This document shows positions 38,248 through 40,620 of a stretch of DNA of 64,000 bases, piece after piece. The DNA is from Promethearchaeota archaeon (lineage in GTDB: Archaea; Asgardarchaeota; Lokiarchaeia; Sigyniarchaeales; SOKP01): NCBI GenBank assembly GCA_019058445.1, contig JAHPZA010000009.1:614410-678409 (forward strand). The letters are read 5' to 3'. The translations under genes and the position numbers were made by a program. The notes under the pieces were generated by a model. The model was not told the origin of the DNA. It did no database searches and was given only the letters and a program-made list of their open reading frames with translations. Within the stretch, counting starts at the first letter, position 1; every line of letters starts with the position of its first letter.

Positions 38248-40620
38248 ATGACTGATAATTGCTTATTCTGCGATTCTAAAAGTATTGATTTCAAATGTGA
38301 AAAATGTAAATCAAGTTTTTGTATCAACCATATGGCAACAACCGAGAGTTGGGAATGTAAAAAACATTTTGATTTAAAATACTCTAAAGCAGATGCAGTG
38401 GAAAATAATTATAAATGTTCTGTTGTTGAAAATAGTAGATGTCCTGAGTGTACTTCATTATTGAGGGTTAAACGGCTATCTTCGGGACAATTTTATTTAA
38501 GTTGTACAAAATGTGGATGGAACTCTTATGAAAAAACACCGGGGTTATTTTATCCGTCAAAGGATCAGCTTGCAAGAGAAGCAAGAAGGTATAATCTTAT
38601 TACAGGGTCCTCAATAAAGGATTGTAATAAGAAGCTAAAATATACCACTGGACGTAAAATTTGCCCTAATTGTTTTTTAGAACTTTTAAAACGAGCTGTA
38701 ACCACAAATTTTTCTACGATAATGGACACATTCAACATTACTGCAGAACAAATGATAAAATTAATTACGCAATATATTGAAGAAAATAGGATATATGGAA
38801 TTATAGATCAAAAGAATCGCATGTTCTATTATATTTCGGACGAAATGAGAGAGAAATTAATTTCTAAAATTCAAAATGAAGGGGCAATAAAAGTGGCAGA
38901 TTTAGGTATCATGTTGGATATGAGCTCAGAAATGGCCCTTCAAGTGGTTTATAGGCTTATTAGTCAGCATCAAATACGAGGTTCGTTTTCTAAAGATAAA
39001 AAGAATTATTTTACTCAGAAATATATTACCGATAATTTAATTAAGAATATTACAGAAAAGGGAAGAGTCCCTATTGCTGAATTAGCTAAAAATTTTAACA
39101 TTCCCTCAGAGTTAATTAAAAATTTTTGTGTAAATTTGATGAAAACAAAGATGGTTGATGCTTTTTTTGCTGCGAGAGGGAAAGAAATTGTAACTACAAA
39201 TCAATTACATACTGAGATTAAAAAATATGCAAAAGAGGTCGGGGTTGTTAAGCTCAGCAAACTTGCTGAAAAAGAGAATATCGCTGTAGAATTAGCTAGA
39301 AAAACTCTACATGAAATGATAAAGCAAGGTGTTATACAAGGCATTTTCACACAACGGAGAGAATTTATGACAATGAAACATCTTGAAACAAAAATAAAAG
39401 AACTTGCCAGAGCTTATAGAAATATGAAACTAAGGGAAATATCTAATAGATTAGGGATTACAGAGGCTAGTGTGGAAGAAAATTTGGCTAAGTTAATAGG
39501 ACAGGGAGATATAGATGGATATATAGATTCACAAAAAAAGATGTTTGTAGCATACAGCGTACCTTTAGAGGGAAGAAAGGCTGCTCCAGCAAAAGCCAAA
39601 GTAGCATCAAAGGAGGGAGGAGATAATATAGAAGTATTAAGAGACTATGATTTTGAGGGGGGACAACTTCATTTCAAAGTGGTAGTCAGAAATCATAGTG
39701 AAATGGCAATTAATAATGTTAAAGTTGTGTTAGATGTACCAACTAGTTATAACGTGAAACAACCATTAATCACTATACCTGTCATAGAGTCTAATAACTC
39801 CCGAGGAGTTGATTTTTATTTAGAACCAAAAGAATGTGGAATCTCAAACATCGGCGGGACCGTGATCTATAAAAACGCCCTAGGAGAACAAAATACAATT
39901 CACGTCAGAAAGAAGGAGGTTCAAATCAAGTGTCCCCTCGTTTGTACTTCAATGAGCACAATAGAGGATTGCCAGCTCTCTATTCAGGACCTTCCTAATG
40001 ATGCTCGAGCTTTTTTAATCACTGATTTAGATCCCCGACTCGTATACAGAGCAGCCATTAGGGCTTTAAAATATTTTGAGACTAGCATGGTAACATCTTT
40101 TGAGGGAGGTGATGCTTCAAGCTCATATGAAGCTGAAGCATGGTTCTGCGCAGAAGCAAAAGTTACGGGAGGAAGGATAATTACTAGAGTCTTTATTTCA
40201 GCAACAAATCAGTCATTAGAGGTCAGAGTATGGTGCGCAAATCCGGGACAACTCACAGGATTTTTAGCTAGGGTAATTGAACTGTTAATGGAACAGATTG
40301 AAATTATCAGGAAGATTAAAAGCGAGGAACGCGAGAAAACTATCGATGTGATGGCTGTAACACAGAACTTGGCAGAGATTTCTGATTATTGTATGCTTAG
40401 ATGGAAAGCTCAAAACATTCGAACTAAATTACATGATACCTTCGTCAGATTAAGGAAAATATTAAAAGAAGATAATCCTGTGCTAGGTCGCATCGAATTT
40501 TGGTTAACAAGACTCAATAAATACGAAAAAGATGATAATATTACTGATGATGATGCAGATAAACTTGTAAACGATGTAGAACAATTCCGGAATGTACTTA
40601 CTAGAACTCTAAAAATTTAG
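38248..40620 (+). CDS. Multidomain protein: Zn fingers, five tandem winged-helix (PCI/UFL1/DDRGK-like) repeats, Ig-like plus platform appendage, helical tail
   Basis: Cys/His clusters in aa 5-142; about 60-aa repeats ending in G.[IF]-type wings; last repeat is PCI-like (LREISNRLG...IDGYIDSQ); beta-rich C-terminal domain. Confidence 0.8.
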   Translation: MTDNCLFCDSKSIDFKCEKCKSSFCINHMATTESWECKKHFDLKYSKADAVENNYKCSVVENSRCPECTSLLRVKRLSSGQFYLSCTKCGWNSYEKTPGLFYPSKDQLAREARRYNLITGSSIKDCNKKLKYTTGRKICPNCFLELLKRAVTTNFSTIMDTFNITAEQMIKLITQYIEENRIYGIIDQKNRMFYYISDEMREKLISKIQNEGAIKVADLGIMLDMSSEMALQVVYRLISQHQIRGSFSKDKKNYFTQKYITDNLIKNITEKGRVPIAELAKNFNIPSELIKNFCVNLMKTKMVDAFFAARGKEIVTTNQLHTEIKKYAKEVGVVKLSKLAEKENIAVELARKTLHEMIKQGVIQGIFTQRREFMTMKHLETKIKELARAYRNMKLREISNRLGITEASVEENLAKLIGQGDIDGYIDSQKKMFVAYSVPLEGRKAAPAKAKVASKEGGDNIEVLRDYDFEGGQLHFKVVVRNHSEMAINNVKVVLDVPTSYNVKQPLITIPVIESNNSRGVDFYLEPKECGISNIGGTVIYKNALGEQNTIHVRKKEVQIKCPLVCTSMSTIEDCQLSIQDLPNDARAFLITDLDPRLVYRAAIRALKYFETSMVTSFEGGDASSSYEAEAWFCAEAKVTGGRIITRVFISATNQSLEVRVWCANPGQLTGFLARVIELLMEQIEIIRKIKSEEREKTIDVMAVTQNLAEISDYCMLRWKAQNIRTKLHDTFVRLRKILKEDNPVLGRIEFWLTRLNKYEKDDNITDDDADKLVNDVEQFRNVLTRTLKI

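What the first reader, a model, noticed from the sequence alone, without database searches (positions are those of the whole stretch)
38248..40620. Candidate eukaryote-signature scaffold: UFL1/DDRGK-like winged-helix array fused to an adaptin/COP/BBSome-like appendage and Zn fingers
Seen: (a) N-terminal Zn-binding clusters (CLFC..CEKC..CINH; CPEC..CTKC; CPNC); (b) five ~60-aa repeats such as IYGIIDQKNRMFYYISDE..GAIKVADL, KNYFTQKYI..KGRVPIAELAK and RGKEIVTTNQL..GVVKLSKL, ending in a PCI-type wing; (c) an Ala/Lys linker; (d) a beta-sandwich (FKVVVRNHS..INNVKVVL..VDFYLEP..IGGTVIY) followed by an alpha/beta platform (AWFCAEAK..IITRVFI..LEVRVW..LTGFLARV) and a helical tail. Established: the UFM1 E3 ligase subunits DDRGK1 (GVIDDRGKFIYI..GRVSIAEL) and UFL1 (DGKEYIT..GRV) form a continuous winged-helix backbone, and sandwich-plus-platform appendages typify AP-2/COPI ears and BBS2/7/9. 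Inference: one archaeal polypeptide linking a UFMylation/PCI-like scaffold to a coat-adaptor ear, possibly part of an undescribed ancestral ribosome-quality-control or membrane-trafficking system.
Basis: partly seen in the sequence, partly recalled or inferred. Interest (0 to 1): 0.85.

Follow-up and report, generated by a model that had tools for sequence, protein, structure and literature searches.

The report
Asgard UFL1/DDRGK1-like scaffold with adaptin ear
This is a real, strongly conserved Lokiarchaeial gene for a 790-residue protein that joins zinc fingers, a winged-helix spine related to the eukaryotic UFM1 ligase pair DDRGK1/UFL1, an adaptin-type ear and a Vps28 tail. The architecture is already annotated in the Asgard gene catalogue, and its function is still untested.

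Summary
It has about 16 conserved Cys/His Zn ligands, five tandem winged helices (WH), a variable linker, a beta-sandwich, an alpha/beta platform and a helical tail.

- The WH array matches the DDRGK1-UFL1 chimera 8b9x best, by sequence and by fold.
- The C-terminus has a true adaptin platform.

It is not undescribed. asCOG cog.003822 is annotated with essentially this architecture in Makarova 2024 (PMC10936438, Table S2). Picchianti 2023 already traced UFL1 and DDRGK1 to Asgard archaea. First readers of this scan noted the same family in at least six other genomes.

What I add:
- One intact WH (WH2) spans the point where eukaryotic DDRGK1 ends and UFL1 begins. This fits a gene fission in eukaryotes.
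- The protein is near-universal in its own order, whereas the ThiF-JAMM-Ubl-UFC1-like cassette of the same genome is patchy, unlinked and also occurs without it.

Most likely it is a non-enzymatic adaptor whose core role does not depend on UFM1-type tagging. Its partners are unknown.

The parts
38248..40620 (+). Whole gene: 790-aa cytoplasmic multidomain protein, an orthologue of the family annotated as asCOG cog.003822
   Evidence: ORF; homologues; catalogue annotation; no TM-like hydropathy
38248..38658 (+). aa 1-137: basic (pI 9.1) Zn-binding region. It holds an 8-ligand AN1-like cluster (C5..H40), a C4 ribbon (C65/C68/C86/C89) and a further Cys set (C57/C126/C139/C142).
   Evidence: Ligands invariant or at least 90% conserved. 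Only a weak Zn_ribbon_Top1 hit (E 0.0033) and no zf-AN1 hit. Low pLDDT. 'AN1-like' is read from the spacing pattern only.
38659..39561 (+). aa 138-438: five tandem winged helices (WH1 138-196, WH2 197-256, WH3 257-316, WH4 317-375, WH5 376-438), overall pI 9.35. WH1 and the first half of WH2 align to DDRGK1. The second half of WH2 through WH4 aligns to UFL1 in solved structures; the Pfam UFL1 model matches aa 226-435, so it also covers WH5. WH5 is PCI-type.
   Evidence: Pfam; PDB sequence and profile searches; Foldseek; VIA (8b9x Z 16.3; CSN PCI subunits Z 11.7-12.3 on aa 316-437); pI
38908..38925 (+). aa 221-226: the alpha2-alpha3 loop of WH2. The DDRGK1 match ends here (aa 142-221) and the UFL1 match begins here (aa 226-344). 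This is the position of the eukaryotic DDRGK1/UFL1 break.
   Evidence: Profile A1 against PDB chains 8ohd_C, 8qfc_D, 8c0d_A, 8c0d_B and 8b9x_A; secondary structure
39562..39627 (+). aa 439-460: Ala/Lys-rich flexible linker, the only poorly conserved segment
   Evidence: pLDDT below 50 at 441-458; mean column identity 0.24 against 0.63-0.81 elsewhere
39628..39927 (+). aa 461-560: Ig-like beta-sandwich, the first subdomain of an adaptin/COPI-type appendage
   Evidence: Model pLDDT 91. Foldseek top hits are COPI 9qpq_H (2e-11), AP2 beta2 ear 1e42 (1.5e-9), gamma-COP 1pzd and the alpha ear. On its own the sandwich also matches generic Ig domains at Z about 12-13.
39928..40242 (+). aa 561-665: alpha/beta platform subdomain of the appendage
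   Evidence: VIA: AP-4 beta appendage (platform) 2mj7, Z 13.7, rmsd 2.7 A, 118 of 141 residues, model range 109-236
40243..40620 (+). aa 666-790 plus stop: a long helix followed by a Vps28 C-terminal-domain four-helix bundle
   Evidence: Pfam VPS28 1.3e-6 and 3.7e-8, above cut-off, profile positions 82-187 only. VIA: 2j9w_A Z 15.3, 2.1 A, 98 of 101; 2g3k_A Z 13.0, 2.1 A, 93 of 94.

Best explanation
The gene encodes a soluble, non-enzymatic scaffold or adaptor, an orthologue of the Asgard family catalogued as cog.003822.

Shown:
- It is built from protein-interaction modules only. These are a basic zinc-finger head, a rigid basic spine of five winged helices homologous to DDRGK1 plus the N-terminal part of UFL1, a flexible linker, an adaptin/COPI-type ear (sandwich plus platform) and a Vps28 C-terminal bundle.
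- The spine is a natural single-chain counterpart of the engineered DDRGK1-UFL1 fusion.

Inferred:
- The head and spine hold a large partner or cargo (candidates: ribosome or nucleic acid, or ubiquitin-like tagged proteins).
- The ear binds short peptide motifs of accessory proteins.
- The Vps28-type bundle plugs into ESCRT-II/III-type winged-helix proteins. The protein would then act as an ESCRT-0/I-like adaptor, as Makarova et al. proposed for this class.
- Its core role does not need the UFM1-type tagging cassette, because nearly all members of its order have it and only about a fifth have the cassette.
For: Domains:
- Pfam PCI, E3_UFM1_ligase, DDRGK and VPS28 are all above cut-off.
- 8b9x is the best match by sequence (1.8e-7 with the single sequence, 1.1e-11 with the profile) and by fold.
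- Ear and platform.
- Vps28 CTD: Z 15.3 at 2.1 A.
- No catalytic family was hit.

Selection:
- 41 orthologues average 77% column identity, and the C-terminal modules are the most conserved (0.77-0.81).

Distribution:
- Full-length copies are in 123/134, 13/14 and 4/4 genomes of three families of the order.
- The Ubl/UFC1-like pair is in 25/134, 2/14 and 1/4 of those families, and also in families with no match to this protein at E 1e-10 or better (f12, f13, f15, f19).
- The cassette is a self-contained ThiF-JAMM-Ubl-UFC1-like unit that often has its own SPFH and winged-helix neighbours and never has this gene.

Literature:
- The catalogue description is essentially the same.
- The ESCRT-adaptor proposal for the Vps28_C plus adaptin-ear class.
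- A UFM1-independent role was suggested by Picchianti 2023.
- ESCRT-II EAP30 is over cut-off in 131 of 154 genomes of the order.
Against: - No partner is shown.
- In this very assembly (92.6% complete) I found no canonical Vps22-type EAP30, no Vps25 and no Vps4_C match. I found only a TPR-EAP30-like fusion, one Snf7 and one Vps28 N-domain gene. The proposed ESCRT-II socket may therefore be missing here although the bundle is highly conserved.
- There is no conserved gene neighbour beyond family-level synteny, so context gives no functional lead.
- The ear subdomains superpose on solved ears only one at a time. The global rmsd is 12-14 A, so the inter-subdomain geometry differs or is mispredicted.
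- UFL1/DDRGK-type WH arrays are fused to many unrelated modules in related metagenomic proteins, so the spine alone does not indicate a pathway.
Confidence: 0.5

Rival explanations
1. It is the E3-like scaffold of an archaeal UFM1-type tagging pathway. The DDRGK1/UFL1-like spine would position the charged UFC1-like E2 on a substrate, as the eukaryotic UFL1-DDRGK1 complex does.
For: The spine is specifically homologous to DDRGK1 plus UFL1. The same genome encodes ThiF (E1), JAMM and a Ubl that ends in ..DRGIVG and is fused to a UFC1-like domain with a conserved Cys-His-x-His. In two genomes both genes lie about 40 kb apart on one contig.
Against: Distribution is independent. Most genomes with this protein lack the cassette, and families f12, f13, f15 and f19 have the cassette without a match to this protein. 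PF09743 also gave no match in f12, f15 and f19. They are never adjacent. UFL1 alignment starts at chain position 43 of 8c0d_A, and the WH2 loop leaves no room for a counterpart of the UFL1 N-terminal helix, which from my own knowledge of the literature is needed to bind UFC1. The UFL1 C-terminal half is replaced by the ear.
Confidence: 0.15
2. It is a ribosome- or translation-associated factor. The basic WH spine would lie on the large subunit as UFL1-DDRGK1 does on the 60S, and the C-terminal module would recruit other factors.
For: The head and spine are basic (pI 9.1-9.7). UFL1 on the 60S is among the top structural matches (8qfc_B, 8ohd_A). There are weak Ribosomal_S25 WH hits. The platform plus bundle (aa 597-782) hits the NCBIfam profile Sel_Asgard at 5e-9. 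A true member of that family lies next to SepSecS in this genome and is described as Sec-pathway-linked in PMC11227280.
Against: The Sel_Asgard hit is far below the family cut-off (36 against 132 bits), and pairwise BLAST to the genome's own member finds nothing. The UFL1 C-terminal domain is absent; from my own knowledge of the literature, that is the part that reaches the tRNA sites of the 60S. There are no ribosomal or translation genes in conserved context. Basic WH arrays also fit nucleic-acid or generic binding.
Confidence: 0.15
3. It is a DNA-binding transcription regulator, as some automatic names say (Lrp/ArsR family).
For: There are many weak HTH-family hits (MarR, Rrf2, TrmB, IclR), JGI names and a basic WH region.
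Against: All regulator hits are below their cut-offs, whereas PCI, UFL1 and DDRGK are far above theirs. Five tandem WHs form a continuous UFL1-like spine. The fused ear and Vps28 bundle are protein-interaction modules not known from regulators.
Confidence: 0.05

Closest known systems
asCOG cog.003822 (Asgard COGs as used in Makarova et al. [quoted passage not shown]
   Same: All four annotated modules occur in the same order. The same CopG/NikR-type gene lies immediately downstream, as in Lokiarchaeum GC14_75. Lokiarchaeial homologues are 68-72% identical.
   Different: Nothing in architecture. I could not align directly to the catalogue member, because no sequence for it was available through the tools.
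Eukaryotic UFM1 E3 scaffold DDRGK1-UFL1 (PDB 8b9x, 8c0d, 8ohd, 8qfc)
   Same: A continuous winged-helix spine that is collinear with the DDRGK1 C-terminal part followed by the UFL1 N-terminal part, at 19-20% identity and Z 16.3.
   Different: It is one chain, not two, so the composite WH of the eukaryotic pair is an ordinary intact WH here. It has no membrane anchor, no match to the UFL1 N-terminal helix or C-terminal half, and no CDK5RAP3-type partner was identified. Zn fingers, an ear and a Vps28 bundle are added. Its distribution is independent of the UFC1-like E2.
AP-2 alpha/beta2, AP-4 beta and COPI beta/gamma appendage ('ear') domains
   Same: A sandwich plus platform two-subdomain unit hung on a flexible linker.
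   Different: Sequence identity is 9-15%. The relative orientation of the subdomains differs in the model (global rmsd 12-14 A). There is no trunk or solenoid. Motif-binding residues were not examined.
Vps28 C-terminal domain (ESCRT-I to ESCRT-II link; PDB 2j9w, 2g3k)
   Same: A four-helix bundle with near-complete superposition at 2.1 A, and Pfam VPS28 above cut-off.
   Different: It lacks the Vps28 N-terminal core that builds ESCRT-I. A separate Vps28 N-domain gene exists elsewhere in the genome.

Membership tests
asCOG cog.003822 | N-terminal Zn-binding domains | tested here: met
   16 conserved Cys/His in aa 5-142
asCOG cog.003822 | E3 UFM1-protein ligase 1 (UFL1-type) winged-helix region | tested here: met
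   PF09743 2.9e-17 over profile positions 22-234
asCOG cog.003822 | Adaptin-C (appendage) domain | tested here: met
   Foldseek and VIA matches to COPI/AP2 ears and to the AP-4 platform
asCOG cog.003822 | Vps28 C-terminal region | tested here: met
   PF03997 above cut-off; 2j9w Z 15.3
asCOG cog.003822 | Direct sequence orthology to a catalogued member | not tested
   The catalogue sequence was not retrievable. Only the annotation line and the shared CopG/NikR neighbour were seen.
Eukaryotic UFL1-DDRGK1 E3 ligase | DDRGK1-type WH followed by a composite WH and UFL1 WH repeats | tested here: met
   Collinear alignment across the junction of 8b9x
Eukaryotic UFL1-DDRGK1 E3 ligase | Two separate chains that complement each other's partial WH | tested here: not met
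   A single chain. The DDRGK1 match ends at aa 221 and the UFL1 match starts at aa 226, inside one WH.
Eukaryotic UFL1-DDRGK1 E3 ligase | UFL1 N-terminal helix that engages UFC1 (feature known from the literature, from my own knowledge) | tested here: not met
   UFL1 alignment begins at chain position 43 of 8c0d_A. A loop of about 5 residues joins the two halves of WH2.
Eukaryotic UFL1-DDRGK1 E3 ligase | DDRGK1 N-terminal membrane anchor | tested here: not met
   Maximum Kyte-Doolittle 19-residue window is 1.28. The N-terminus is Zn fingers.
Eukaryotic UFL1-DDRGK1 E3 ligase | UFL1 C-terminal half (ribosome- and CDK5RAP3-binding part) | tested here: not met
   After WH5 come the linker, ear and Vps28 bundle. 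No UFL1 match extends beyond aa 435.
Eukaryotic UFL1-DDRGK1 E3 ligase | Co-occurrence with UFM1, UBA5 and UFC1 | tested here: not met
   The cassette exists in this genome but only in 25/134 genomes of the family, against 123/134 for this protein. It also occurs in families with no match to this protein.
Eukaryotic UFL1-DDRGK1 E3 ligase | Stimulates UFM1 transfer from UFC1 | not testable with these tools
   Needs biochemistry
Adaptin/COPI appendage | Beta-sandwich followed by an alpha/beta platform | tested here: met
   About 245 aligned columns to 9qpq_H, 1e42, 1pzd and 1w80; platform alone matches 2mj7 at Z 13.7
Adaptin/COPI appendage | Canonical inter-subdomain packing and peptide-motif pockets | tested here: inconclusive
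   Global rmsd 12-14 A although both subdomains match. Pockets were not analysed.
Vps28 (ESCRT-I subunit) | N-terminal core that binds Vps23/Vps37 | tested here: not met
   Only profile positions 82-187 of 188 are matched
Vps28 (ESCRT-I subunit) | C-terminal four-helix bundle | tested here: met
   2j9w_A Z 15.3, 98 of 101 residues at 2.1 A
PCI-domain proteins (lid, CSN, eIF3) | WH subdomain | tested here: met
   PF01399 4.7e-28 in 5 stretches; CSN subunits Z 11.7-12.3
PCI-domain proteins (lid, CSN, eIF3) | Helical-repeat subdomain preceding the WH | tested here: not met
   The best-scoring PCI stretch covers only profile positions 22-82 of 84. The model shows back-to-back WHs with no helical repeats.

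The most novel reading that the evidence does not exclude
This protein preserves the unsplit ancestor of DDRGK1 and UFL1, and it acts in Asgard cells as a tether between the large ribosomal subunit (bound by the basic head and spine) and ESCRT or membrane machinery (bound by the ear and Vps28 bundle). That would be a UFM1-independent forerunner of ER-ribosome quality control. Eukaryotes would later have split it, anchored one half in the membrane and coupled it to the UFM1 cascade.
Probability: 0.1. Interest if true: 0.8.

Novelty: already known. Interest (0 to 1): 0.35.

Why it matters
UFL1-DDRGK1 is an unusual E3 that has no catalytic domain. What it did before UFM1 existed is an open question, raised in PMC10183829.

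This family shows the two eukaryotic subunits as one chain, with the break point inside an intact winged helix. It also combines that spine with two trafficking-type modules.

The protein is a near-universal single-copy gene in its order, and orthologues lie in complete single-contig genomes of a sister family. The question "what does the spine bind: ribosome, ESCRT or E2?" can therefore be put to biochemistry and cryo-ET. The gene itself, however, adds no new kind of system to what the catalogues already list.

Tried and rejected
- Complex prediction of the WH array (aa 138-440) with the UFC1-like domain (aa 93-270 of P0271): no verdict, score 0.10 against a mark of 0.32. This is not evidence either way.
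- RNA runs for the locus: none was listed.
- Pfam Ufm1 in the own genome: only a chance hit inside an aspartate-kinase-like ORF. The Ubl was found instead through its UFC1-like neighbour.
- BLAST of the WH array against the 461-aa multi-WH protein of the cassette: nothing.
- BLAST of the C-terminal half against the genome's own Sel_Asgard protein: nothing.
- Conserved neighbours: synteny (GT87, DsbD-like, target, CopG-like, parvulin, HD, Fer4) holds only within the family. Orthologues at 38-45% identity have unrelated neighbours.
- PF05871 (Vps25) and PF09336 (Vps4_C) in the own genome: none, or one below cut-off; the Vps25 search rang in no control genome.
- Paralogues of ear plus bundle in the own genome: only two weak sandwich hits.
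- zf-AN1 was not detected by Pfam, so 'AN1-like' rests on ligand spacing only.
- HMMER aligned the human UFC1 catalytic Cys to a Phe of the UFC1-like domain. I reject that reading, because the alignment stops there and a Cys-His-x-His 16 residues further on is conserved in 20 of 21 sequences.
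Full report
**The object.** window:38248-40620(+) is a single ATG-started ORF of 790 codons in an AT-rich genome (about 31% GC). The genome has 4.6 Mb in 10 contigs and is 92.6% complete. Source names given to close homologues are Promethearchaeota or Lokiarchaeota, so this is an Asgard archaeon of the Lokiarchaeial type.

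**Is the gene real?**
- The word-indexed search found at least 267 homologues. The 120 listed are nearly all about 790 aa long and 67-91% identical.
- In a sample of 400 genomes of the phylum, full-length copies occur in 123/134, 13/14 and 4/4 genomes of three families of the window's order.
- The rest of the class shows only weaker matches (E 1e-29 to 1e-63) that the PF09743 scan places in proteins of other lengths. Elsewhere there is almost nothing.
- An alignment of 41 orthologues has 77% mean column identity. Only the linker at aa 439-460 is free to vary.
- No window reaches transmembrane hydropathy.

**Domain anatomy.** AF2 models were made of the whole protein (pLDDT 76) and of aa 455-790 with a deeper alignment (pLDDT 91, pTM 0.70). 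They give:
- a Zn-binding head, aa 1-137;
- five winged helices, aa 138-438;
- a linker;
- a beta-sandwich, aa 461-560;
- an alpha/beta platform, aa 561-665;
- a long helix plus a four-helix bundle, aa 666-790.

The head holds sixteen Cys/His, all invariant or nearly so. The first eight have AN1-like spacing, but Pfam does not call zf-AN1.

**The winged-helix spine.**
- Pfam scores PCI 4.7e-28 (five stretches, WH part only), E3_UFM1_ligase 2.9e-17 (aa 226-435) and DDRGK 1.3e-14 (aa 139-219). All bacterial-regulator HTH families stay below their cut-offs.
- Against PDB sequences the only significant match is 8b9x, the engineered DDRGK1-UFL1 chimera. The E-value is 1.8e-7 with the single sequence and 1.1e-11 with the family profile.
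- Structurally 8b9x is first by Foldseek (E 7e-12, TM 0.72, 3.5 A).
- It is also first by VIA (Z 16.3, 242 of 255 residues), three Z units above every other row.
- WH4-5 also resemble CSN PCI subunits (Z 11.7-12.3).

**The break point.** With the family profile, DDRGK1 chains align to aa 142-221 and UFL1 chains to aa 226-344. In the model, aa 197-256 is one ordinary WH whose alpha2-alpha3 loop is at aa 223-227. So the place where the two eukaryotic proteins complement each other's partial WH is an unbroken WH here. This fits an origin of DDRGK1 and UFL1 by fission of one gene of this type. Among the papers the text searches returned for these terms I found no such statement. I could not run the phylogeny that would test it.

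**The C-terminal half.**
- Foldseek on the high-confidence model puts COPI (9qpq_H, 2e-11), the AP2 beta2 ear (1e42, 1.5e-9), the gamma-COP appendage and the AP2 alpha ear first. Each covers about 245 columns, that is both subdomains. BBSome subunits follow.
- VIA shows the platform alone on the AP-4 beta platform (2mj7; Z 13.7, 2.7 A, 118 of 141 residues).
- VIA shows the tail on the Vps28 C-terminal domain (2j9w_A Z 15.3, 2.1 A, 98 of 101; 2g3k_A Z 13.0).
- Pfam VPS28 is above cut-off, but only for profile positions 82-187.
- The sandwich on its own is a generic Ig-like fold.
- The two ear subdomains do not superpose together (rmsd 12-14 A), so the packing is unconfirmed.
- The second refutation test (CARDB-type Ig with no platform) is not met.

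**Already known.**
- Table S2 of Makarova et al. [quoted passage not shown] It is followed by a CopG/NikR-type gene. The window has the same neighbour at 40700-41116.
- The paper's text treats Vps28_C plus adaptin-appendage proteins, some with HTH/PCI domains, as possible ESCRT-0-like adaptors that reach ESCRT-II without ESCRT-I.
- Picchianti et al. [quoted passage not shown]
- Koestlbacher et al. 2026 report Ufm1 homologues in nine Asgard clades.
- First readers of this scan noted the same family in at least six other genomes.

**Test of the UFMylation link.**
- A UFC1 family search of the genome found a 270-aa protein on another contig (P0271, G000:C6:733774-734583). It has an N-terminal ubiquitin-like domain ending ..DRGIVG and a UFC1-like domain (PDB UFC1 E 4e-4).
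- The gene sits behind ThiF (5.6e-54) and a JAMM protease. SPFH, a 360-aa unknown and a 461-aa multi-WH protein lie upstream.
- The ThiF, JAMM, Ubl and UFC1-like genes recur together, mostly in that order, in most of the 25 loci I examined from seven families. Usually the Ubl is a separate gene that ends exactly at ..VG.
- The E2-like domain keeps Cys-His-x-His in 20 of 21 sequences.
- The scan had already described this cassette in this genome and elsewhere, including Thermoplasmata.
- Its distribution is 41/400 genomes overall and 25/134 in the window's family. It also occurs in families f12, f13, f15 and f19, where the target protein was not found at E 1e-10 or better.
- A scan with the Pfam UFL1 model finds shorter WH proteins in 18/31 genomes of f13 but none in f12, f15 or f19.
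- The two genes are never adjacent.
- The target is thus a near-core gene of its order, while the cassette is accessory.
- A complex prediction gave no verdict.

**ESCRT context.** EAP30 (Vps22-type) is over cut-off in 131/154 genomes of the order, so co-occurrence cannot discriminate. In this assembly I found only:
- a Vps28 N-domain gene;
- one Snf7;
- a TPR-EAP30-like fusion.

There was no Vps25 match and no Vps4_C match above cut-off. This may be a gap in the assembly or a real loss. It weakens the ESCRT-II reading for this organism.

**Other leads.**
- The NCBIfam profile Sel_Asgard ("putative selenocysteine system protein") hits aa 597-782 at 5e-9, far below its cut-off.
- A true member of that family lies next to SepSecS in this genome. 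It corresponds to the Sec-linked hypothetical protein mentioned in PMC11227280. Pairwise BLAST to it shows nothing.
- UFL1/DDRGK-type arrays also occur fused to an ABC ATPase, BNR repeats and ABC-auxiliary domains in related metagenomic proteins. The spine is therefore a reusable scaffold module.

**Verdict.** The domain interpretation is supported and can be sharpened: the tail is a Vps28 CTD and the spine is an unsplit DDRGK1-UFL1. The claim that it is undescribed is wrong, and the UFMylation coupling is not supported by distribution. The best reading is a non-enzymatic adaptor with unknown partners (confidence about 0.5). The rivals are an E3-like scaffold (0.15), a ribosome factor (0.15) and a DNA-binding regulator (0.05).

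Noticed in passing
own genome G000:C6:728080-734583 (locus L027:2081-8587), not in the window: A UFM1-type tagging cassette: a 461-aa multi-WH protein, SPFH/Band 7, a 360-aa unknown, a ThiF E1, a JAMM protease and a Ubl::UFC1-like fusion. The Ubl ends ..DRGIVG and the E2-like domain keeps Cys-His-x-His. In most other genomes the Ubl is a separate gene that stops right after ..VG. The one paper in the library holding both 'Asgard' and 'UFC1' calls UFC1 eukaryote-only. The scan had already reported this cassette (e1-2073870).
   Followed up: partly
own genome G000:C6:1055583-1056164 (locus L062:16566-17246, minus strand): A full member of NCBIfam Sel_Asgard (226 bits) lies directly beside a SepSecS gene. 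The platform plus bundle of the target (aa 597-782) hits the same profile weakly (5e-9), hinting that this Sec-linked orphan protein may be built from the same module.
   Followed up: partly
own genome G000:C10:614434-614802 (locus L063:4420-5367, minus strand): A 315-aa protein with TPR repeats fused to an EAP30/Vps22-like double WH. It is the closest relative in this assembly of the canonical Vps22-like gene of a sister genome (34% identity). No canonical Vps22, Vps25 or Vps4_C match was found in this assembly.
   Followed up: partly
own genome G000:C6:729223-729444 (inside the 461-aa WH protein of the cassette): The C-terminal WH of the cassette's 461-aa protein resembles the Vps22-like protein of a sister genome (E 7e-7). 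It is a possible ESCRT-II-type WH inside the UFM1-type cassette, next to an SPFH gene.
   Followed up: no
proteins P0220, P0187, P0141, P0143 (metagenomic relatives): DDRGK/UFL1-type WH arrays are fused to an ABC-transporter ATPase, to BNR repeats and to ABC_transp_aux/DUF4350 modules. The spine is a promiscuous scaffold module in these archaea.
   Followed up: no
window:40700-41116 (+): A CopG/RHH-type 138-aa gene lies directly downstream of the target. It keeps this position throughout the family and in Lokiarchaeum GC14_75, but not in orthologues at 38-45% identity.
   Followed up: partly
own genome G000:C6:1042154-1045742 (locus L062:3155-6743): SecY, an EMC3/TMCO1-like insertase and a thioredoxin-like gene lie a few kb from the Vps28 N-domain gene and a Yip1-like Zn-ribbon membrane protein. 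This is a cluster of membrane-biogenesis and trafficking-type genes.
   Followed up: no
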